This document shows, one piece after another, positions 2,835 through 27,450 of a stretch of 64,000 bases of DNA; the first letter of the stretch is position 1; each line of letters begins with the position of its first letter. The translations under genes were made by a program, and so were the position numbers. Below the pieces are notes generated by a model that had not been told where the DNA came from, ran no database searches, and worked only from the letters and a program-made list of their open reading frames with translations. Source of the stretch: the human T2T-CHM13v2.0 reference genome, Homo sapiens; NCBI RefSeq assembly GCF_009914755.1, contig NC_060931.1; one strand, 5' to 3'.

Positions 2835-3860
2835 AAGAAAGGGCAAAGTGTGTTCCAGGCAGGGGCAAGGGCAAAGATTCTGTATGGGGAATAATTCCTA
2901 TTTATTTGAAGTCCAAATATAAGTCCAGTAGAGTTGGAGACTAGTGAGAGAGAAGATATGAGGTTAGAGAAATAGACTGTGATGAAGTACTATAAGGCAT
3001 TGGGACCAGAGTACAGGGTTTATTCTAAAACCATGAGTGTTAAGCAGAGGACAGTCTATGATCTGGTTGATATTTTTAAAAACACGATTCTGGCTACAGC
3101 AATGGAAATGGAAACCATAGGAGATCAATACAGTATTTCAAGCAATCCATGGGGATGGTTTGGTCTGAGAGGCAAATGCTACATCTGGAAGGATACAGAC
3201 AAGTTTGAGGTTGAACTAAAAGATAGTGTGGGACCTGCTAGTGCCCTAGATGTTAGCACTGGGAAAGGGGAAGGGTCCAACAGTTTTAGCTTATGGGCTT
3301 AAGAAACTGGATGATGATAGTGTCATTTATCGGGATGGACACTACCAATAGGAGAAAATATTTGAAGAAATCAGGAGTTTTGTTCAGGGCGTGTTCTCTA
3401 CAACAACAAAAACACTTGCTATGCTGCTGGTCCTGTTAACTGTGCTATAGAAAAAAATAATCCTGAAACTCATTGGAGGGTTTGAACCTGGCAAAATAAA
3501 TCTGGGAATCATGAACATATAAATTCCTTATGACATAGAAATGGTCCTTAAAACCACAGGCTACTTGAGATCACTTATGCAGAAAATATGGAGAAGGGCA
3601 AGGGTGAAGCCTAGGGTACTCCAACATTTACAACATGAAAGATCGGAGAATGGAGAAAGAAGAACCCTCAAAACCAAGAACCATGAGGGAGAAGGAAATC
3701 CAGGAGCAGCAGGGACACTGAGGATTCCAGAGCATGGAATTTATCCACCACGGTGGCTGCCTTTGAGAAGAGATGTTCTTTCCCTGATTTCAGAAGAGAA
3801 ATTGTTTTAGAGTGTTGGAAGTGGGAAGCCTGAACTGCATGGGAGATGGAAGGAAGGGAG
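2835..3860 (-). mobile_element. L2 (LINE-2) fragments; resumes ~4245-4630 after the MST LTR
   Basis: Purine-rich antisense L2 motifs: gtgttccaggcagggg, tttaaaaacacgattctggct, gaaactggatgatgatagtgtcattt, tcaggagttttgttcagggcgtgtt. Confidence 0.7.
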
Positions 3861-3862
3861 GG

Positions 3863-4243
3863 TGTGTTAGTCCGTTTGCATTGCCACGAAGAAATACCTG
3901 AGATTGGGTAAATTTAGAAAGAAAAGAGTTTAATTTTTGTTCTGCAAGCTATACAGGAAGTGTGGTGCCAACACTGGCTTCTGGTGAGGTCTCCGGAAGC
4001 TTCCAGCCATGGCGGATGGCCAAGGGTGAGCCTCACATGGAGACAGGTATCAAGCAAGGAGAGAGCAGGGAAGTCCTAGAGTCTTTATAAAAGATCAGCT
4101 GGCATGTATCACCAAGGGAATGGCCCCAAGCCATTCATTAGGGATCTGCCTTGGGATCCAACACCTCCCACCAGGTCCATCTCCAACATCAGTGGTTACA
4201 TTTCAACATGAGATTTGGAGGGGACACACATCCAAACTATATC
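3863..4243 (-). mobile_element. MaLR solo LTR (MSTB-like)
   Basis: Begins tgtgttagtccgtttgcattgc and ends catgagatttggaggggacacacatccaaactatatca, i.e. reverse-complement MST termini; ~380 bp. Confidence 0.85.
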
Positions 4244-6052
4244 ATCAGGCTTGGAGTCAGGGACTGTAGAAGCCACTAGGAGATATTAGGTTGTGAAGTA
4301 AAGCGGGCAATAAGACTGCTGGAGGAATTTTACTTTGTCTTTAGATTTTCTTTTAAGAAAGGATAGGGGGCAAATGTGAATAAGAATGGTATCTACACTC
4401 TTGTCCAAGCCATGAAGGTCTTGGAATTCAAGAAAAAGTGTGGCTTTGCTTTCAGCTGAGGGGCAGTGCACAGGCAAGATGAATTAAGGATGGGCAGGTG
4501 AAGAGAACATTTGTAGAAGTTAAGGTTTGTGGGATTTTCTGATGATTCCTCATGAGTTTCAGAGGGGACCGTGTGAGGTTTGAGAAGACAGGATGCGAGG
4601 TTGGGTCAGAAATGGAATGGACTGGGAAGGACTCATTAGTCTGGAAAGAGATTGCTCACCTGGTAATTCAAAGCACTATCTCAGAGTAATGTGGTTGATC
4701 AATTACCTTATGGAACAGAGTATTTATCTGGAATGTAGGGGTACATTTTAGCAAGAGGGCAAGGACTCTTTACTGTGCACCAGCATTGCAATAGCTAAGG
4801 AACAGTGATTCCCCTGTGAACAGTAGCAAAGGAAGCCTCCTTCCTTGTAGCACAAGGGCCTGGCAATGGGATGTGAATAGACAAATCCCTTGGAGAGAGC
4901 AGATATTCTGAAACAGATATGCAAGAACTTAATATACGAAAATGGTGACATTCAAAATCTCTGTGAAAATAATTAATTGCTGAAGAAATTGAATTGCAAC
5001 TGTTGGACTCCCAATTAGGAATATGTGTATATAATTAGTACACTCAAATATCTTGTGCCCCAGGATCTCTTTAGTAGCCCAATGCCTTTATACTTCTATC
5101 AATTTAACTGCACTTTTACCATAAATTCACTTAAATGTGTTACCAAACCAGTCCATGAAAAACTTTTTAGTTACATAGGTAATCTATTTCATAGAAGAAT
5201 GAAATGTAAGTGCAGAAAGAGAGTTATTTATTTCCATGTAAGCTTAATAATTTGGAAACACTTAAGTAGAGTTAAACAAAACAATTCTTCTGAATTAGGT
5301 GTGAGCCAGTTATAATACACTGGAAAATATCTACAAGGAATAAAAACTTGAAAGACAAGTGACAGGAGAGGAGGCTACTTTTATAACCCACATAGCAGAC
5401 CAGGGTTATTATTCCACAATGGTAAGACATCACTAAATATCAATGATAAAAAAATAGAGAATACATAGAATCACTAAAAACATAACTATGCAGTTCATGT
5501 AATAAATAGTTCAAATTATTAATAAACATATAAAATACTCAAAAGTGTTCTATATATTCAGAGAAATACATATATGTGGAATTTCCACTCATCATTGCCA
5601 AAAACAAGGTCTGCTAATATCCTTCCTTTGTAGGAGAAACAGATATCATGTAAATTTGATAAATTGATCAGAATGAGAGTCTGCAAATTATCTTTCCATG
5701 TAACTTTTTAATTATTCTTCTATTTTGGCAGTGTCATTTAATTTTAATAAAGGATTCAATATGCAATAAAGAGATGAGCCATGAACTGGGCCAAATAGCA
5801 TAGCTTTGAAATACATTAACAAAACAAGAAAGACAAGAACAAAAATAGAAAAAAGAAGGAGGCATTTTTATGACTTAGACGTTGGCACAAAAATATCTAA
5901 CATCGTACAGAAATGGTTACAGCTGATAAGAAGTTTATGATTTAAAAAGCTTGATTTTATTTCTCATATGGGAGCCACAAGGACTCCTTTTGTCCCTACT
6001 ATTAATTTCTAAGTCACTTGTTTTATTTTCCCTTCAAAACCACATGCTGATT

Positions 6053-6303: not shown

Positions 6304-7385
6304 AGTGTTAATCTTTGACAGTACAGATAAAGGAAAGGGACAAAGGAACCAAAGGAAATGATGGAGCATTTTTCCAAAACCTACCATGACCATGACATCT
6401 GTTTCTTTCTCCTTTTTCTCCTAAATGCCACTCTTAGTTGGCTGTGATTTCAGAGGGCAGGGGACTTCCTTTAAAATAAGAAGAGTTCCACTTCTATTTT
6501 ACTTTAATATTTAATAAAATATTGCATACAACCACATGAATAATACATGTAACATAAAATTATATTAAAGGAAATTACAAAAAATTTCATAAAGTACTAC
6601 GGAAAACAATGGAGCTTGAAATGTGTGTGCAAATTTATGTTATATATACACACATATAAATTATATATGATAAACACAAACACAATTTTTTACCTGTTAC
6701 TCTCAATGTTTTGGATAAACTGAACATTTTGCTTAAAAAGAGGTATCACAAAGCAACATATTGTTTTAACTTTTAATATAAAGTTATAGTTATCAAATTT
6801 TAAATAAGAAATCCAAGTTTTGTGACGTGAAAGAGTCTGCTAATCAAAGTTCTGCATAACCCATACCCACAATATGACACCTTTTAAATCATAGTTTGAT
6901 TTATTTTAAAGTGAGACCGGAATTTAAGTATTTACAAAACAATACGAATGCGGATTACTTATAGATTTTTTCCCCCAGTGTTTTATAGGTAATTTGCTCA
7001 CATGTAATTCAGAATTGTTTTTGGCAACTCCACTTAGGTCTTCCCAAATTGTTAAACTAATTTAGAGAAGCAACAGCTCTTTCTGCATTTACGTTTTATT
7101 CTTCCACAAAATAATTAATTAAAAGTTTTGTCATGGACAGGTTTGATGGAACATTTAACTGAATTTCTGTTAAAAGTGTAATTAAACTGATAGCAGCATA
7201 AGGGTTGTTAGATACTAAAGAGAGCCTGTTGCAAAGGAGAAATGAGTGTCTAATTAGATACTTTTATTCTTGTATGTGTAAATAGATTGTGATCTTGATG
7301 CATATATGTGTGTATATATATAATACTTTTGAAGTAGAGGTACACTTAGACATGTATAAATAGAACATGTTCCTACTATGTATAT

Positions 7386-11709: not shown

Positions 11710-12034
11710 TTTTCTGTTTTCTTTCCTGGAACTCTGCCTATCTCCAGATAGCTCACTTCCACTTAACTCAAGTCTCTGCTCAGAGATGACCTTCCCTGCC
11801 CACCTGGTCTGAAACCCTGGCCCCTTCTCTACCCTGCCTTGCTGTACAACAACCCCTCACCTTGCTCTCTTTTTCTTCATAGGATTTGTCCACGATTGAG
11901 TTTATAATTGATATTTACTTGTGTGTTGCTCTCCCAGTAGAATATAAACCCTTGAGAGAAGGGATATTTTTATTCATGATTATGTCCCCAGAGTCCAGAA
12001 CAGGCACCTGAATATTTGTTGAATGCATGCATGA
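11710..12034 (+). mobile_element. L2a 3' end
   Basis: caagtctctgctcagagatgacctt, ctcccagtagaatataaacccttgag, gtccccagagtccagaacagg, aatatttgttgaatgcatg. Confidence 0.85.
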
Positions 12035-12290
12035 GTCAAATAATGAAACACAGTATTAAATAGTGATTAAAAATGAGAATGTGGCTACACATTTATAGAC
12101 AAAGCAGAATATGTAAAATGCATTACAATTAAAAAATATATAGAAAATTGTTACAATAAAAGAAAAATTTACATGTAGAGATATAAACTAATTTTTGTAA
12201 AGCCAACATATATTGTATTTATATATAACAAAATACAAAAAAGTAATTAGGACTCAATAATAAGACAAACAACTTGATTAAAAATGGGCC

Positions 12291-13181
12291 TTCATCAGAG
12301 AAATGCAAATCTAAACTACAGTGAAATATCGTCTCACCCAGTTAAAATGGGTTTTAACCAAAATATAGGCAATAACAATTGCTGGCAAAGATGTGGAGAA
12401 AAGGGAACCCTCATACACTGTTGATGAGAATGTAAATTAGAGCAACCTCTATGGAGAACAGTTTGGAGCTCTTTATAAAACTAAAAATAGAAATAACATA
12501 TAATCCAGCAATCCCACCGCTGAGTATATATCCAAAAGAAAGGAAATCAGTATATGGAAGAGATATCTGCACTCCTGTGCTTTTTTCAGCACTATTCACA
12601 ATAGCAAAGATTTGGAAGCAACCCAATTCATCCATCAATAGACAAATGGATAAAGAAAAGGTGGTGCATACACAAAATGGAATACTATTCAGCCATAGGA
12701 AGAATGAGATCCTGTTGTTTGCAACAACATGAGTGGAACTGGACATCATTATATTAAGTGAAATAAGCCAGGCACAGAAATACAAGTATATTTTCACTCA
12801 CTTGTGGGAACTAAAAATTAAAACAATTGAACTCATGGAAACAGAGACTAGAGTAACAGTTACCAGAGGCTGCAAATGGTAGTGGGGGTTAAAGGGTTGG
12901 TTAATGAGTACAAAAATATAGTTACATAGAATGAATAAGATATAGTATTTGATAGCATAACAGAGTGACTACAGTCAACAATAATTTATTGTATATTTTA
13001 AAATAACCTGAAGAGTATAATTGGGTTGTTTGTAATGCAAAGAAAGGATAAATACTTGAGGTGATGGATACTCCATTTCCTGGATGTGATTATTATGCAT
13101 TGCATGCCTGTATCAAAATATCTCATGTACCCCATAAATATATACACCTATTATGTTCCCACAAAAATTAAAAATTAAGAA
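12291..13181 (+). mobile_element. L1MA (L1MA2/3-like) 3' fragment nested in an L1MC
   Basis: ORF2 C-terminal remnant (YNPAIPPLSIYPKERKSVYGRDICTP) plus an L1MA 3' UTR ending tatacacctattatgttcccacaaaaattaaaaatt. The host L1 breaks at aaaaatgggcc (12290) and resumes at gtgccaaaatcttaacag. Confidence 0.85.
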
Positions 13182-14248
13182 AGTGCCAAAATCTTAACAG
13201 ATTGCTCACCAAAGAAGATACACAGATAGTAAACAAGCACATGAAATGATGCTCCACATAATATGACATCAGAAAAATGCAAATTAAAATAACAATGAGC
13301 TATTACTACACATGTATAATAAGCATGACTATAATCCAGTACTGCCTGTACCAAATGCTGGCAAGGATGTGGTTCAAAAGGAACTTTTATCTTTGCTGGT
13401 GGGAATGCAATAGAGTACAGCTATTTAGGAAGGCAGTTTGGCAGTTTCACAGAAAATGAAACATAGTTTTATCACAATCCAACAATCATATTCCTTGTAA
13501 TTCCTTTCCTTTCCAAATTCCTTTCCATATTCCTTTCCTAAATATCAAATCTATCCCCCAAAAGTGTGAAAATCTATGTCTGCACAAAAATGCACAAATA
13601 TGTTTATTTGTAATTGTCAAAATTTTGAAGCAATCAAATTCTCCTATAGCAGGTGAATGGATAAAACTTGGTACATTCAGACAATGGAACATTTGTCAGC
13701 ATTAAAAAGAAATTATCTGTCAAGCCATAAAAAGACATGGAGGAAACCTAAATGCATATTTTTAAATGAAAGAAGCCAATCTGAAAAGGCTACATACTGT
13801 ATGATTCCAACTGACGTTCTGGAAAAGCCAAAACTATGTGGACAGTTAAAACATTGATGGTTGCCAAGGGATGGAGAAAAGGGAGGGATGAATACGTAGA
13901 GCACAGAGGATTTTTAGGGCAGTAAAAATACTCTGTATGATACCATAATGGTGTATACATGTCATTATAGCTTTGTCCAAACCCATAGAATCCACAACAC
14001 CAAAAGTGAACACTAATGCGAGCTGTGGACTTTGGCTGATGGTGATGTGTCAGTGCAGGCCCATCAATTGTAATCGATGGAGCACTCCGGTGGGAAATGT
14101 TGACAATGGGAGAGGCTATGTTTACAGGGGAGCAGGGGACGTATGGGACATCCCTGTATTACACAAATCTCTGTACAATATTTTTCTCAATTTCCCAGTG
14201 AACCTAAACTTCTCTAACAAAATAAAAGTCTTAAACAGTTAAAAAAAA
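13182..14248 (+). mobile_element. L1MC1/2-like 3' end (its 5' stub lies at ~12205-12290)
   Basis: ccaaagaagatacacagat, gaaagaagccaatctgaaaaggctacatactgtatgattcc, gtagagcacagaggatttttagggcagt, ctaaacttctctaacaaaataaaagtc. Confidence 0.85.
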
Positions 14249-14445
14249 TTAACCTGGGTACAGTATTGTAACCTAAGCTACAGATTTGATTTGGATTTTA
14301 CCAGTTTTTGCCTTAATATCTTTCCTTCTTCAACATTCAATTCAATATTCCTTTGTTGCATTAAATCATCACCTCTCCTTACACTCCTGCAATCTGTGAC
14401 AGTTTCTCAGTTTTATGCTGTTTTTCATGAACTTCACACTTTGGT
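14249..14445 (-). mobile_element. L1MC4-like 3' UTR, right part (continuation of 10432-10555)
   Basis: ttaacctgggtacagtattgtaacctaagctacagatttgatttggattttaccagtttt...caatctgtgacagtttctcag follows the left fragment in the recalled consensus. Confidence 0.65.
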
Positions 14446-14843
14446 AAACTGTCTCTGTATTTGGGTAAAACAACATTTTAAAAATTTACAATGTGTGAAA
14501 TATATCTTGGAGGAGGAAGATTATATAAAAGGTCATTCATTATTTAAAGTTTTTGGTTAAGGTACACTTTTAAAAAATATAGTCACATCTATATGAGTGG
14601 TTTAGTTATGCATATTAAGTGTGGCTCTATTTCAGTGAGAATGCAACCCCACTTCATGAGTGATGCTGCTAAATGAGAAGGGAAGCGGAAAGAGTGAGAA
14701 CAATGCATTACCATTGACAGCACAGCACAAAAGCTGGCTAGGATAGCATTGTATTGAGTCCAGTAAAGGAATTGAAACTTAATTAGGTTGAAAGAGAATT
14801 TAAGTATCTGGGCAATTGTATCACTCCGATCTCTGTCAGTATC

Positions 14844-15240
14844 ACATTCATTTAACATTCCTAAAGTAATTTTTTGAGAGTCTATATTGACCCAAGTATT
14901 TTGCTAGACACCAGGGATATGATGGTGACTGAGACACCAAGGAAATAAAAGATTAGTGGGAAGACAGCTAAAAGAAGAGAATTCAACACAATTAGATAAA
15001 TTCTATTGTAAGGGCTAAAACAAATTTCTATGTGAACATATAAAAGACATGAAAAAGTTTTTTTGCTGTAGATAATTTAGAAAAAAAAAACCCTGAAACG
15101 TTTAAGAAAAGTAAAAGTTTACTGGAGAGGAAAAGTGAGGAACAGAAAGAACCTAATTTTGGAAGACGCTATGTTTAAATGGTTGTGGGGCAGGGTTGGG
15201 CAGTGCTGGGGTTAGGAAGTACAGGTCTAGAAATCTGAGC
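14844..15240 (-). mobile_element. L2 3' end, antisense
   Basis: cattcatttaaca...caagtattttgctagacaccagggatatgatggtga followed by purine-rich L2 body. Confidence 0.6.
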
Positions 15241-15250
15241 ACAGACCAGT

Positions 15251-15475
15251 TTAACATGTGATGGCTTGTCTGGGACAGTCTCAGTTGGCTTTCCTCATGC
15301 CTAGCTGATCTGTGCCCATTTTCCTTCAAGTATCCTGGTGTGAATGAGAGATTGCATAACACTCTGGAGAGAATACAGGTTATTCTTTGTGCATATTAAG
15401 GGGATATGGACTTGATTGGGTGAGTACAACTAGAAGTAGAAGAAGGTACAGGAGTCTCCTGACATCTTCATTTTG
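15251..15475 (+). repeat. Inverted repeat, left arm (225 bp)
   Basis: Reverse complement of 17191-17415; 9 mismatches and no gaps by manual alignment. Confidence 0.97.
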
Positions 15476-15664
15476 GTTGGTTGAGCTTGAGGCTCTTGTG
15501 AGACATTCATGCAGAAATAACCACTGGATAATTTAACATAGGACAATATTGAGAAATATGTGGGTGTGTGTGTGTATAGAGAGAGAAAGAGACAGGGAGA
15601 ATCAATTAAAAGTAGGGTGCATCCCAGAGAACATTGGGATACATAATGATTAAGCAAACAGATT

Positions 15665-15780
15665 TCTATTCTGGTTAATTACATCTTTAGTTCCTCATCT
15701 ATAACTAGGGCTAATATTAGTCACTTCTCGGTGTTGTAAAGATGAAATAAAATAGTATATAAGCACCTATATCCCGCAAT
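15665..15780 (+). mobile_element. MIR fragment
   Basis: agttcctcatctataactagggctaatattag...tgttgtaaagatgaaataaaatagtatataagcacct. Confidence 0.65.
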
Positions 15781-17190
15781 CAATGTCCATATATAGAGAG
15801 ATATATAGCTATTAAAATTTATTCATATTTATGTATTTATTGCTAAACATACATGGCTACCATTCATTTTCCTGTGTCACTGTAGTAGAAGAAAAAGGGG
15901 CGCTCTCAGAAGAACACTTTACGTGAGGGCTATATTATGTCATCAGGTAACTAGGGATTTGAAGTGATGGACTTCTTCCTTTTAAATTCCCATAGGATAG
16001 TTTAGGGTAGGCCAGTTTGCCTGAAAGCAGAATAAGCAGAGGAGAATAATAGACCCATGAAATTGTGTTTTCCTTTTTATTTGTGAGAAGTTAGAATTCT
16101 GCCTTTGTTTATGCTGTATCTGTGTGTCGGGCCTTCAGGGATCTTGAAGATTCTGGGTCTTCACAGTGGCCGTAACACCCTGTGCTAGCTAAGCCTGTAA
16201 TAGCATGCTTAATAAGGCTTAAAAAGAATGACCTGAATTCCTCAAACAAAACAAACTCTATTCAGAGGTGGCATATGGATTTTTCTTTCAAAAGATAAGC
16301 CAAGAAGAAGTAGATGATTAAAGGCAAAATAGATCCACAGGTCACTAATGGTGTAGAGACATACAGAATTACAAAAAGCAAGAACTAGTTAACAGAATTT
16401 ATACCTAAAGGAAATAAAACAGGGACACACAGCCACACAGAGGTTGAGCAAAAAGAGCCCCTGTCTTCCTTTGGTTGCTCACTAACAAGGGAGCCTGGTG
16501 TTGGATGCTGACTCAGCGACTGCAGAACTTGGGGAAACTGGGTCAGGTGTGCCTTCCCTAGCAGCTATAATGACTCCACAAAAATTAAACCTGAAGAAGT
16601 CGAATTAAGAATTCAGACATTTCTATAGGTGAGCTTGAGCATTCTTTCTAACAGTAATTTGCTAAGAAGTAATTTATTTAACCCTAGGAATTTGGTAGTC
16701 TCATTTTGGGACCAAATGTCTTTTCTGTGGAAACTCCACGATGAGCATCTTCTCACTGGTGCCTCTCCCTAGAGAATCAGGGCTGGGAGGCATGAGGCAG
16801 GGAAGCCAGATCAAAACAGCCAGTGTTCCTAGGAGGAATGCTCCAAATTTATCCTTTCCAAATTTATTTATCTATTTCATACAGCTAAGAAGGGTAACAA
16901 GTGCGCAAAAGTTGGGAACCTTTCAGCCAAGTCTCTCTCTGCCTGTGTTTATAAAATAATAAATAAATAAAAAGAAGTATTATTGCGACAAAGCCCTGCC
17001 CATTGATTACACCTTTTCTATCCATGTTTTGATGCTGCTGCCATGGGGGAACTGACCATGCAGCCTCTACTGCCTGGAGTGTTCACTTTCTGTCCCTTTA
17101 CAGAAGTCTGAGCCTCCTCAAACTACACTAACTGGTTTGTTAAAAGACAGATGTGGGCCAGGAAGCCAATCCAGCTTCTTTCAGCTTCAT

Positions 17191-17415
17191 CAAAATGAAG
17201 ATGTCAGGAGACTCCTGTACCTTCTTCTACTTCTAGTTGTACTCACCCAATCAAGTCCATATCCCCTTAAAATGCACAAAGAGTAACCTGTATTCTCTCA
17301 AGAGTGTTGTGCAATCTCTCATTCACACCAGGACACTTGAAGGAAAATGGGCACAGATCAGCTAGGCACAAGGAAGGCCAGCTGAGACTGTCCCAGACAA
17401 GCCATCACATGTTAA
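17191..17415 (-). repeat. Inverted repeat, right arm (225 bp)
   Basis: caaaatgaagatgtcaggag...gccatcacatgttaa is the reverse complement of 15251-15475. Confidence 0.97.
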
Positions 17416-17559
17416 GTGTTTAGGAAAATGGATGACAGAAAGACTGGGGAATCAAGAACCAAATGACTATTTTTTTTTTCTTATGACCAGGAGACCCTTC
17501 CATGAGGAAAACATGGGGGAGAAAATTCATTCTTAACTTTAAAAGTTTAAACTAATTTT

Positions 17560-18110
17560 AAACTAATTTATGCAAACTTGTATAGCATAAAAATAAAAAA
17601 AAAAGGTCTTACAGTAAATTATTCTTCTGAGTCTGTCCCCCACCTCCCCAGAGACATTCAGAGTTGTATGTTATTTATGTCTCTTCCAGAATTAATGTAT
17701 GGCATGGAACACACACACACACATGCAACTATATTTATATATATATATCTGAAAACAAACACATTTTAGGCTACTTGATATTCTGCTGTAATAAAGTCCA
17801 ATTTTCCCTGCCCCATAATGATGTATTTTTAGATTTTTCTAATATATTTATTTTACAAAAAATGATGAATGGGATATTTTTGTTCATATAACATTCTGCT
17901 CATATGTGAGTATAGCTGTAGGATAAATTTCTAGAAGTGGAATTGCTGAGGCAAAGGGCATGGCATTTGCATTCATAATTTAAAGATATTACCAAATTGC
18001 CTGCAAGAAGTTTTCCACAATTCAAACTATCACCAGCTCTGTAGGAAAGTGGATTTTTCCCTGCACACTCACCAACACGGCATTTCACCGCAAATGTGAA
18101 TCAATGCCAA
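17560..18110 (-). mobile_element. L1ME-like fragment, antisense
   Basis: ctgtaggataaatttctagaagtggaattgctgaggcaaaggg...gatattaccaaattgcc...cactcaccaacac. Confidence 0.7.
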
Positions 18111-18465
18111 CATGAACGATGAGCAGAGACCCCTTTCCTGCTGCTGCGAAGGCAGTGTGCCTCCATCTTCCATGATTTTATCTATCATAGGAAAAACAGG
18201 ATTTAAATGTAAAAGTTGGACAAAATCACCCATAACAGACTATTTTAACCCAGTTTAGGAGGTTGTTAAAATTGGTATGGACAGAATGTCTGGATGGAAA
18301 GAAATTCTGAATAAAATTTTAAAAACCCTGAAGAAGTATTCCTTGAAAAGTTTAAATGTGCCCTGAAACACATCCGGGTTATAATAAATGATAGAGCGTC
18401 CAAGAGAATGTAGAAGGCACATTTGTATTGAATGTCTGCGTTTTAGTATGATTATGTTTGCAATC

Positions 18466-18875
18466 CTGTATCATCAGGGTTTGAACAGTAAAATAGAGGC
18501 CGCTCTTTGTGTACAAGGAATGAATGATTTTAAAGAAGGGACTTAGAGATTTGTACAACAACTGGAAGGGCTGCAGAACTGCAGGTCGGGAGGTCATCAC
18601 CAAAGTAGGTGACTCTGCAGATCTGGCCTTAAAGCACCCTGGACAGTTCACCAGCTCAGGCCAAAGCACTCATACACAGCATTGTCAAGAAACTCAGCTG
18701 GGTTGCTTTACAATTTAGGCCTGTCCCATCTGCTTGCAAGTGTCTCTGTAAAATGAGTCTCTTCTCCTCCATCTTCCTCAGTGGGTATAAGAGCTTCTCA
18801 TTGGACATATCAACCTTAACCCATATGGTGAGTGGAATTCAGGAACTGTTGTTCTCAACTTTGGGGTAACACAAT
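18466..18875 (-). mobile_element. Ancient ERVL-type LTR remnant (LTR33-like)
   Basis: Terminal-like tgtatcatcagggttt and the motif ttaacccatatggtgagtggaattcaggaactgttgttc. Confidence 0.4.
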
Positions 18876-19404
18876 TTTGGAACCATACTGTGAAACTGAT
18901 TTTTTTTCTCTTAACATTGTATCATGAACATTTCCCATAGCTTTTAATATTTTATGAATATTTTATAAACATGATTTTTATAGGCTGTTTTATCCTATGC
19001 AATATTGTCAGATTTTTTTCTACTAAAAATAATTTTGCAAATTATATTCTGATATATGACGTTTGTATATCCCTGATGATGACCTTCTTGGCTATTCCTA
19101 AAATTGAAATTAAGGAATTAAAAGGAAGATATCTTTTCTAAGTAGAAAATAATTCAAAGATTTGGATCAGAATAATTTATAATTCCCTTACGTGTATCTG
19201 TAAATGATTGTTATCCTTTTAGAAACACTATATATTTTCATCAAAATAATTTAAAACACATATATAAACACACAAGACATGATGCTGCTAACTTGATAGA
19301 GAAATAATGGCATCCCATGTTGATTTAAATGTTTATTAATGAAGTTGAGCAAATTTCTTATACATGTTGCTTCCATTGCTCCAATATCTTAAAAGTACTC
19401 TGCC

Positions 19405-20463
<1,059 letters not shown>

Positions 20464-21145
20464 TAGCAATCCCATTACTGGTTATATATCCATAGGAAAT
20501 GAAATCTGTGTGTCAAAGAGATATCTGCACACCCATGTTTATTACAGTGCTATTTACAATAGTCAAGATATGGAATCAACCTAAATGCCTATCTACAGAT
20601 AAATGAATAAAAAATTACACACACACACACACACACACACCCAAACTAGAATACTATCCAGCCATAAAACAGGAGGAAATCCTGTCATTACAACAACATG
20701 AATTAACCTTGAGGACAACTATGTTAAGTGAAATAAACCAGGCACAGACAAATACCACATGATCTTAATTATATGTGAAATATAAAAAATGTTGATTTCA
20801 TAGAAATAGTAGCATGATGGTTACCATAGGCTGGGGATGGGAGGCTGGGGGAACTGGGAGAAGTTGGTCAATGGATGCACAGTTACAGTTAGGCAGGAAG
20901 AATAAATTCTGGTACTCTATTTCAAGGTAGGGTGGCTATAGCAAATAACAATGAATAATGCATATTTCAAAATGGCTAGAAGAGAAGATTTTGAATGTTG
21001 TCACCACAAAGAAATAATAAATGTTTAAAGTGACGAAGGTGGTAATCATCTTGACTTGATCATTACACTATGTGTATCTTTGAAACATCATCATCGTACC
21101 CCACCAATATCCAGAATTGTTTTCTGTCAAAAAATAAACATAAAA
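20464..21145 (+). mobile_element. L1MA (L1MA6-8-like) sense 3' segment
   Basis: tagcaatcccattactgg...gagatatctgcacacccatgttt...gctagaagagaagattttgaatgtt...ctgtcaaaaaataaa; contains (CA)n at 20617-20640. Confidence 0.88.
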
Positions 21146-24923: not shown

Positions 24924-25303
24924 TATATTAGTCCATTCTCATACTGCTGTGAAGACATACCCGATACTGAATAATTTAAAAAGAAAAGAAGTTTAATTGG
25001 CTCATGGTTCTGCAGGCTGTATAGGCTTCTGCTTCTGTGGAGGCCTCAGGAAACTTTCAATCATGGCGGAAAGTGAAGGGGAAGCAAGCATGTCTTACAT
25101 GGCCTGGCTGGTAGGTGGAAGAGAGAGAGCAGGGAGGTGATACGCACTTTCAAACAGCCAGATCTCCTGATAACTCTGTCAGAGAACAGCAAGAGGTAAG
25201 TCCACCCCCATGATTCAGTCACCTCCCACCAGGCCCCTCCTCCAACATTGATGGTTACAATTCGACATGAGATTTGGGTGGGGACACATACCAAACCATA
25301 TCA
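24924..25303 (-). mobile_element. MSTA-like MaLR solo LTR
   Basis: tatattagtccattctc...gagatttgggtggggacacataccaaaccatatca; 5-bp TSD ataac at 24919-24923 and 25304-25308. Confidence 0.92.
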
Positions 25304-26362
25304 ATAACCATGCATTTAGACGTGAGTTGTATGTGAACATTATTTTAATTGTGTGCAGCGGGGTAGGGGGAACAGCACGGTGGGTGACATACTTAATTCT
25401 CCTGGGCAGTCTCAGATTGAGATTTTAAAGAATATCAGCTCAATCTGCCAGTGGATAGCTTTGCTCAACATTGTGAATAACATGGTATTTATCTTCTTCC
25501 TGGATTATCTTCTTTTGGAAAATATCAGCTGTGAGTGAAGGCAGGTTGGGGAAAAGCACTAAGGCCTGGTCTCATCTACCAGGAAGGTTTCCCCCTCTGC
25601 CTTTTCCTTACTGAGTGAATTTACCAAGTCATGGAGAGGAAGCAAACAGCTGTGAAGGTGACAAATACCACACCTGCCCCTCGGCTTCTGGTGATCCCCA
25701 GGCAGTCAGCAAAGCCAGAGGAAACCTGTATGCTGGCTTTGGGGAGGCATTTGGGATGTAATGGATGCAGCCAGCCGTGAAATATTACAGATCATTGCTA
25801 TCCACATATTGTATTTTACATCTGGCTTAGGTAAACATCCTATTCTTCATTTGAGGCTTACCAATTAAAGGAGCTGAACCATAGATTACCATTGCCTTCC
25901 AAATGTATTTGTGGGCAGCAACTAGACCTGTGTGCATGTATGTGTGTGTGTCTGTGCTTGCTAAGAAAACATATTCCTGAATTCTTCCTAAATTACAGGA
26001 GACTGTCTTTTCTGAAAGCAAAAGCATTGAATTTTAGGTCATCCTTTTTCATGCAAATGAGACAGTTTTGGGAATGTACTGTGATACAGTTTGTACAAAT
26101 TTTGCTCTTTTTCATCAGTGTGAAAATAACACCCAGAGGCTATGGGTTTATGTAATGGCTAAGTCAGATGTGATGAAAGAAATAGATTAAGAATGTTGAA
26201 AAATAGCGTAAATATTTAGTTGCAGAAGGAACAAGATTTATATAGTTTCTGCTATAAAATTCTCCTGACTCATTTCAGTTCTAAGATCCCAGCTCCTCAT
26301 TCACTCTAGAATGCACATCTCAGTTTGATTCTGAAATATTAAGGCATTTTCATTTAGCAGGT

Positions 26363-27450
26363 ATTCATTCAACATATTATCTTCCAGGTACTGTGCTAGT
26401 TCTTGTAGATACCAAAGATGTTAAGACAGACACAAACCCTCCATAATTCCGTTTGTAGTCTGGAGAGAAAACAAAATTAAATAAGCAATTCCTTTAGAAA
26501 GTGATGTACTAAGTTTCTTGTATGGAAGGTGAAGTCTATTATGTAAGCCCATAGCAAAGATTGTTAACTCAGAGGAGAAAACTTCTGCAAGGCTTTGCAA
26601 CAAAGCCTTGAAAGCCTTGGAGTTTGGAAGAGCACCAAAGAAGACTGGGAAAAGGCATTTTTTTAGGCCAGTGTGATGACATGGATGTTCAAAGAAACAA
26701 AAACAAAATTGAATAAAACAGAATTTAAAGTCAGCATAGTAAGATAAGTTTGGAGAGGCATGTTAAGCAATTTGCAAGTTGTTTTAAAGGTAAAGGAAGG
26801 CCGTGTCAGGTGCCCTGTGCTTGTCACAATGCTCAGGATCCATGAATTTAGGAATGAGTTCTGCAAGAGCAGCCTGCAGAGGACGTGAAGAACAAGTGGT
26901 TAGAGACCAGCCCCGAAAAGCACAACAGGAGGATGTCCTCAGGAGCTCCAAGGGGAGAAAGGACTTCCAGAGGTCAAGGGTAGATGAGCAGTTCTGTGGG
27001 AAGGTCTAGCAAAATAGAAGAGCTACAATTTGTCCACTAGAATAATTGATTCCGAAGAATCAAAAGTCATCTCAGGAAGACAGTTTCAGCAAAGTGGCAG
27101 GGTTATGCGGCTAAGCCAAAGGGAAGGAGTCAGACATGTACCGAAGTGGAATGGAGGTGCACAGGGAGGAATGTGGGATGTAACTGAACACACAGGCCCA
27201 GAGAAGCCAGGTGGGGCCAATTCCAATGCACAGGGAAGGGAAAACTCTTCCACTGAGGAAGGCATATCTCAAATGAGATTGGTTCCAAAGCACATGTATG
27301 TCTGTGTCTGGGGATGTGAAATGGGAGCTCCATGTAGGTGGCTCCTCTTGTCTCTGTTAATAGAAAATCAGATGATCTCCTAAGAAAAACTATGAATATA
27401 AGTTGGAATGGAGAATTGAAGATATTGCAATTGAAATAGATTTGTGGAGG
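26363..27450 (-). mobile_element. L2 fragments, antisense
   Basis: attcattcaacatatt...ccaggtactgtgctag...aagacagacacaaaccct, with further purine-rich L2-like body downstream. Confidence 0.6.

What the first reader, a model, noticed from the sequence alone, without database searches (positions are those of the whole stretch)
15251..17415. 225-bp, 96%-identical inverted duplication bracketing 1.7 kb: candidate invertible segment
Seen: 15251-15475 is the reverse complement of 17191-17415, with 9 mismatches and no indels. The inner 80 bp (15396-15475) and outer 34 bp are identical, and all mismatches fall in the middle; one CA/TG pair indicates decay of a shared CpG. The spacer is 1715 bp. The arms are not a young repeat; part resembles an ancient hAT-Blackjack MITE (MER94/MER81-like, low confidence), so the high identity implies local templated duplication. 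Established: short inverted repeats mediate recurrent inversions and gene conversion. Inference: the spacer may be a polymorphic inversion, and a read-through RNA would form a 225-bp duplex (ADAR or endo-siRNA substrate).
Basis: partly seen in the sequence, partly recalled or inferred. Interest (0 to 1): 0.7.

Follow-up and report, generated by a model that had tools for sequence, protein, structure and literature searches.

The report
Old inverted copy beside its donor
A 225-base piece of non-coding human DNA occurs twice, in opposite directions and 1.7 kb apart; the second copy was likely pasted in by a one-off copying slip during DNA repair in a primate ancestor, and it is likely an ordinary relic, not a segment that flips.

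Summary
The repeat is real: 15251-15475 is the reverse complement of 17191-17415, with 9 mismatches, no gaps and a 1715-bp spacer; only these two copies were found in the genome. The arm holds a ~115-bp old MITE. Two same-orientation pieces of an old L2-like repeat flank the left arm, at 14835-14991 and 15463-15540, the second crossing its inner edge. So the left arm is likely the original, the right arm an inserted inverted copy, and the spacer lies in its ancestral orientation. Both arms carry derived changes; 4% divergence gives roughly 9-38 My (assumed rate). The mismatch-free 80 bp is weak evidence of conversion (P 0.17-0.25 for such a run anywhere). No inversion is listed here in a T2T call set that holds 0.85-1.1 kb inversions. 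The anatomy matches the common human 'inverted duplication' class: under 1 kb, within 5 kb of the donor. No annotated transcript crosses it. Ordinary; no ape genomes or haplotypes were available to test.

The parts
15251..15475 (+). Left arm, 225 bp; inferred donor (original copy)
   Evidence: native context
17191..17415 (-). Right arm, 225 bp inverted copy; inferred insertion; no target-site duplication seen
   Evidence: longest direct match between its 40-nt flanks is 5 nt
15476..17190 (.). Spacer, 1715 bp; 15620-17190 found once in the genome; inferred ancestral orientation
15244..15366 (+). Old ~115-bp MITE with terminal inverted repeats in its family (MER81-like, hAT-Blackjack; name recalled); ends approximate
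   Evidence: 51 pattern matches vs 2 in control; alignment; profile hit 15256-15359, E 2.7e-8
17300..17415 (-). Copy of the same MITE inside the right arm
   Evidence: profile hit 17410-17309, E 7.7e-9
14835..14991 (+). End piece of an old dispersed repeat (L2 3' end read in reverse; name recalled), same orientation as the piece at 15463-15540
   Evidence: profile of 24 non-seed copies, E 9.8e-7
15463..15540 (+). Internal piece of the same L2-like repeat; crosses the left arm's inner edge (15475/15476)
   Evidence: 77 pattern matches vs 0 in control; profile hit E 1e-6; tests outside the search motif P 0.001-0.03
17182..17203 (.). Short hairpin at the right arm's inner junction: 6-bp perfect stem (8 of 9 with one mismatch), 4-nt loop; possible end-joining scar
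   Evidence: present at 1 of 4 junctions, background 1.6% per position; 8 of 9

Best explanation
The two 225-bp arms are one sequence present twice in opposite orientation, and the right arm was likely inserted as a one-off templated copy of the left arm during repair of a nearby break, likely 9-38 million years ago, with the spacer likely never flipped. Inferred steps: a broken or stalled DNA end near 17190/17416 switched onto the donor 1.7 kb away in the opposite direction, copied 225 bp, and rejoined, possibly through snap-back synthesis that left a short junction hairpin. Both copies have since drifted apart; the structure is likely fixed and without function.
For: Two copies only. Two same-orientation pieces of one old repeat family flank the left arm: 14835-14991 (E 9.8e-7) and 15463-15540, 646 bp apart; in 49 family loci that end piece was found upstream in the same orientation in 10 (3 of them seeds, offsets 579-1116) and opposite in 2. 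The family columns next to, but outside, the search motif match the arm's last bases (P 0.032 anchored on the motif; P 0.0013 with a register chosen afterwards) and the spacer beyond the motif (P 0.024). No such piece beyond 17416. No target-site duplication. Derived changes in both arms: left at arm positions 46, 47, 82; right at 35 (inside the motif, so biased) and 107. Nine differences are unlikely at a human-chimp depth of 1.2% (P 0.002; recalled figure). Known class: inverted duplications under 1 kb within 5 kb of the donor (PMC4617611), median 284 bp (PMC12350158). No call at chr7:53.21 Mb in PMC10150506 Table S1.
Against: No ape or other human sequence could be fetched, so age, fixation and the pre-insertion site are not observed. 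The overlap of the old repeat with the arm rests on about 10 bases; profiles of the family's upstream part did not recognise the rest of the arm, 15371-15466. The MITE's outer end did not tell left from right (P 0.47 and 0.78). One weak profile gave a chance-level hit across the right inner junction (17315-17162, E 2.1). The inner 80-bp identical run has P 0.018-0.028 if that end is singled out. An even number of past flips would leave the same picture.
Confidence: 0.8

Rival explanations
1. The arms recombine with each other now and then, so the 1.7-kb spacer is a rare or ape-lineage inversion, with gene conversion keeping part of the arms identical. This can sit on top of the origin given above.
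For: 225 bp at 96% with an 80-bp perfect run. Most sequence-resolved balanced inversions have flanking inverted repeats of 200 bp or more (132 of 183; bioRxiv 2021.12.20.472354, passage). Candidates with 180-400 bp arms are in a published test set.
Against: No row between chr7:47.78 and 54.38 Mb in a T2T table with 44 sample columns that holds 852-1140 bp inversions. Not among 612 candidate regions (hg38 offset recalled) nor human-chimp inversions (offset recalled). Only 1.9% of inverted duplication pairs without prior evidence proved polymorphic. Recurrence goes with long arms: 23 of 32 recurrent inversions had 10 kb or more. Mismatch clustering is not significant when the place is not chosen afterwards.
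Confidence: 0.08
2. The repeat is the scar of one ancient staggered-break inversion: the spacer was flipped once and the overhang was duplicated at its ends.
For: It would give the same arm-spacer-arm layout; the version with the right arm as original also keeps the left inner junction intact (logic, no call).
Against: The left-original version needs the left inner junction to be new, yet the old repeat crosses it. The right-original version needs the repeat's end piece beyond 17416, yet it lies at 14835-14991 in collinear orientation.
Confidence: 0.06
3. The pair is kept for an RNA role: a read-through transcript forms a 225-bp duplex that is edited or diced.
For: If transcribed, 219 of 225 (plus) or 218 of 225 (minus) arm positions pair in register, duplex about -420 kcal/mol.
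Against: No annotated transcript crosses it; POM121L12 ends 12.5 kb upstream (gene table). Both strands fold alike, so no strand is favoured. No Rfam match of note in the arms. One paper holds both POM121L12 and piRNA (listing only). The fold follows from the duplication alone.
Confidence: 0.04
4. Two independent transposon insertions, or the terminal repeats of one 2.2-kb transposon.
For: Each arm contains a MITE.
Against: The arms share 109 bp beyond the MITE and are 96% alike, while family copies are far more diverged; two copies in the genome; spacer single-copy; the old repeat runs across the left edge.
Confidence: 0.02

Closest known systems
Small inverted duplications ('Inverted Dup') of the 1000 Genomes SV maps (PMC4617611; PMC12350158)
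   Same: Duplicated stretch under 1 kb (225 bp; published median 284 bp), opposite orientation, within 5 kb of the donor (1.7 kb).
   Different: Published cases are polymorphic; this one is 4% diverged with changes in both arms, so likely old and fixed (not observed directly).
Inversions mediated by inverted repeats (PMC3961182, PMC13629690, bioRxiv 2021.12.20.472354)
   Same: Inverted arms of 200 bp or more flank a unique spacer.
   Different: No second orientation is listed in the tables searched; arms are short and 96% alike, whereas recurrent cases mostly have arms of 10 kb or more.
Short-range template switches in ape genomes (PMC7954356) and snap-back SD-MMEJ (PMC2943611)
   Same: Reverse-complement copying from a nearby template; a short inverted repeat across the junction.
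   Different: The ape events are short (median 12, maximum 128 nt); here 225 bp over 1.7 kb. SD-MMEJ was defined in fly repair junctions, and the hairpin here could be chance (about 3% over two new junctions).
MER81/MER94 hAT MITEs (listed under hAT in PMC5753468)
   Same: The arm's first half belongs to a dispersed ~115-bp family with terminal inverted repeats.
   Different: It is passenger sequence: half of the arm, badly decayed, and not the cause of the arm-to-arm identity. The subfamily name is recalled.

Membership tests
Small inverted duplication (inv-dup) | Duplicated stretch under 1 kb in inverted orientation | tested here: met
   225 bp
Small inverted duplication (inv-dup) | Copy within 5 kb of donor, not dispersed | tested here: met
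   1715 bp apart; 2 matches genome-wide, a lower bound by the tool's own note
Small inverted duplication (inv-dup) | One copy in native context, intervening DNA not inverted | tested here: met
   moderate strength, negatives
Small inverted duplication (inv-dup) | An allele or outgroup without the second copy | not testable with these tools
   no primate genomes or haplotypes on hand
Polymorphic inversion mediated by inverted repeats | Flanking inverted repeats of 200 bp or more | tested here: met
Polymorphic inversion mediated by inverted repeats | Both orientations seen among haplotypes or species | tested here: inconclusive
   absent from published tables (in T2T coordinates; under recalled offsets); raw haplotypes not examined, rare alleles not excluded
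Polymorphic inversion mediated by inverted repeats | Sign of exchange between arms (conversion tract) | tested here: inconclusive
   P 0.17-0.25 for an 80-bp run anywhere, 0.018-0.028 for the inner end
Transposon with long terminal inverted repeats | Multi-copy element with target-site duplication | tested here: not met
   arm 2 copies, spacer 1 copy, old repeat crosses the left edge
MER81-like hAT-Blackjack MITE (first half of arm) | Dispersed ~115-bp family with terminal inverted repeats | tested here: met
   the profile includes the search motif, so its E-values are somewhat flattered
MER81-like hAT-Blackjack MITE (first half of arm) | Match to the named Dfam/Repbase consensus and 8-bp target-site duplication | not testable with these tools
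   no repeat library; name recalled
ADAR or endo-siRNA substrate | A transcript spanning both arms, with editing or small RNAs | not testable with these tools
   none in the gene table; no expression data

The most novel reading that the evidence does not exclude
A 225-bp repair-born inverted duplication has itself become a recombination substrate: the 1.7-kb spacer has flipped in some ape lineage or rare human haplotypes, and conversion keeps the inner 80 bp identical. It would be a datable test of how short and diverged arms can be and still invert.
Probability: 0.08. Interest if true: 0.35.

Novelty: new member of a known kind. Interest (0 to 1): 0.12.

Why it matters
Little, on the best reading: it is one likely fixed, intergenic example of a common class of small structural change. 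Its modest value is that an old repeat lets donor and copy be told apart from one genome, and ape assemblies could date it and show the pre-insertion site. If the spacer did flip, it would be a small unlisted inversion with very short arms, with no gene inside or at its ends.

Tried and rejected
Rfam scan of 12000-21000: 8 matches at E up to 1, none in the arms or spacer above threshold. Tandem repeats: none in 15251-17415. First L2-like profile was swamped by Alus and rebuilt with them removed. Upstream-only profiles did not detect the arm's second half; a walked-out profile gave only chance-level hits; pairwise tests were borderline or open to strand-composition bias. MITE outer end could not polarise the outer junctions. 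GC direction of mismatches, 6 vs 2, P 0.29. Background survey: 0 similar pairs in 85 other loci (240,778 bp), but these are 2-3 kb long and hardly able to hold one, so I give no genome-wide rate. Supplement of PMC12350158: no hit, but the file was cut and may not hold the inversion list. Search for POM121L12 with inversion gave 2 unrelated listings. A bacterial promoter scan was irrelevant. Supplements of PMC11794170 were listed, not read. The table of the Porubsky 2022 paper was not seen (bioRxiv supplements closed).

Full report
Observation. The finding is accurate. 15251-15475 and 17191-17415 are reverse complements over 225 bp with 9 mismatches, no gaps and 1715 bp between them. It is the most identical long self-match in the window, 96% against 89% for the next. 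A genome search with the arm found these 2 places, from 2 candidates scored; the tool warns that counts are lower bounds. Most of the spacer, 15620-17190, was found once.

What the arm is made of. A 21-base degenerate motif from the arm matched 51 places against 2 for the reversed control. Of the 30 loci fetched, 28 were not the arms; aligned, many show a ~115-bp element with terminal inverted repeats. A profile from 14 of the 28, picked by eye as full-bodied, hit both arms (E 2.7e-8 and 7.7e-9) and nothing else in the window above threshold; the motif is part of that profile. I recall this family as MER81 (hAT-Blackjack); a review lists MER81 and MER94 under hAT (PMC5753468, passages), but no consensus library was available. 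The MITE is passenger sequence covering about half of the arm.

Which arm is the original. A motif from the first bases of the spacer matched 77 places against 0 in control. I used 49 of the 76 other places. Their profile hits 15463-15540, across the left arm's inner edge (E 1e-6). Since the motif came from the window, I tested columns outside it: the 16 upstream columns gave P 0.032; the 11 that fall on the arm gave P 0.0013 with a register chosen afterwards; the downstream columns gave P 0.024. A second profile, seeded with 3 loci picked by likeness to the window and rebuilt from 24 other copies, hit 14835-14991 in the same orientation (E 9.8e-7) and nothing beyond 17416. In the 49 family loci this end piece was found upstream of the motif in the same orientation in 10 (3 being the seeds; 579-1116 bp away) and opposite in 2; in the window it is 646 bp away. 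I recall the family as LINE-2. So left flank, left arm and spacer start are likely parts of one ancient insertion with the MITE inside it. That makes the left arm the donor and the right arm the insert, and argues against both versions of a staggered-break inversion. Against this: profiles did not recognise the arm's second half, the MITE's outer end was uninformative, and one weak profile gave a chance-level hit over the right inner junction (E 2.1).

How it arose (inferred). The right arm has no target-site duplication (longest flank match 5 nt). At its inner junction is a 6-bp hairpin stem, 8 of 9 with one mismatch, seen at 1 of 4 junctions against 1.6% of random positions. Snap-back synthesis-dependent end joining leaves such inverted repeats across junctions (PMC2943611, passages); chance is about 3% over the two new junctions, so this is a hint only. 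The simplest account is a template switch during break repair or replication: copy 225 bp backwards from the donor, then rejoin.

Age and conversion. Nine differences in 225 is 4.0% (95% interval 1.8-7.6%), or 20 My (9-38) at an assumed 1e-9 per site per year; 9 or more has P 0.002 at 1.2% and 0.30 at 3.2% divergence (recalled human-chimp and human-orangutan figures). Against family columns, the left arm looks derived at positions 46, 47 and 82 and the right at 35 and 107 (noisy alignment, position 35 biased), so both have drifted. The 80-bp identical run has P 0.17-0.25 anywhere and 0.018-0.028 at the inner end: not enough to claim conversion.

Is the spacer a known inversion? In PMC10150506 Table S1 (T2T-CHM13 v1.1, which I recall equals v2.0 on chr7; 44 sample columns; I saw 30 of 61 chr7 places in the file, covering the sorted rows around this position) the rows pass from 47,776,479 to 54,382,131 with nothing at 53.21 Mb, though inversions of 852-1140 bp are listed. 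Among 612 candidate regions of PMC13629690, no coordinate starts with 5303-5307 and the one 5302 hit is unrelated; this rests on my recalled hg38 position near 53.05 Mb. In the human-chimp table of PMC1270012 the nearby human chr7 rows are at 52.57 and 53.03-53.70 Mb, none at my recalled 52.89 Mb. The supplement of PMC12350158 was cut and is inconclusive. Base rates point the same way: 1.9% of inverted duplication pairs without prior evidence were polymorphic (PMC13629690 section 7), and 23 of 32 recurrent inversions had arms of 10 kb or more (bioRxiv 2021.12.20.472354, passages). Rare alleles and ape-lineage flips remain open.

RNA. If read through, the arms would pair almost fully on either strand (219 and 218 of 225). 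That follows from the duplication itself. The gene table shows no transcript across it, and Rfam has nothing in the arms.

Comparison with what is known. Sudmant et al. found that 54% of sequenced inversion sites were inverted duplications, nearly all under 1 kb and within 5 kb of the other copy (PMC4617611 section 9). A long-read study of 1,019 people found them the commonest class outside mobile elements, 277 events, median 284 bp (PMC12350158 section 18). This locus has that anatomy and differs in being old. My searches for this locus in print were and the tables above; none describes it.

What I saw of each paper: PMC4617611 passages and section 9; PMC12350158 passages, section 18, search of one cut supplement; PMC13629690 abstract, section 7, part 3 of 43 and searches of its tables; PMC10150506 supplement searches only; PMC1270012 supplement searches only; bioRxiv 2021.12.20.472354, PMC7954356, PMC5753468, PMC3961182, PMC2943611 passages; PMC11794170 abstract and file list.

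Verdict. A real, likely fixed, small inverted duplication of a known kind in intergenic DNA; interest 0.12.

Noticed in passing
window 3070-3616: A longer copy of the same L2-like family, about 300 bp downstream of POM121L12, same orientation.
   Followed up: partly
window 11904-12033 (-) and 26348-26480 (+): Further end pieces of the L2-like family.
   Followed up: no
window 5040-5173 and 7116-7249: An inverted pair of 134 bp at 76%, 1942 bp apart; not an obvious Alu pair; may be two old repeats or an older local duplication.
   Followed up: no
window 4162-4244 and 25220-25303: Direct pair at 85% over 85 bp.
   Followed up: no
window 17816-18077: Old multi-copy repeat, 39 other matches among 40 scored at 70-95%; starts 400 bp beyond the right arm, so no help with the junction.
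   Followed up: partly
outside the window, about 135 kb downstream of the finding: PMC1270012 lists large human-chimp inverted blocks from chr7:53.03 to 53.70 Mb (their assembly); by my recalled offsets the start falls at the HAUS6P1 pseudogene of the gene table.
   Followed up: no
window 17171-17189: A 7-base motif occurs twice in tandem just before the right arm; could be a second trace of iterative end-joining synthesis, or chance.
   Followed up: no
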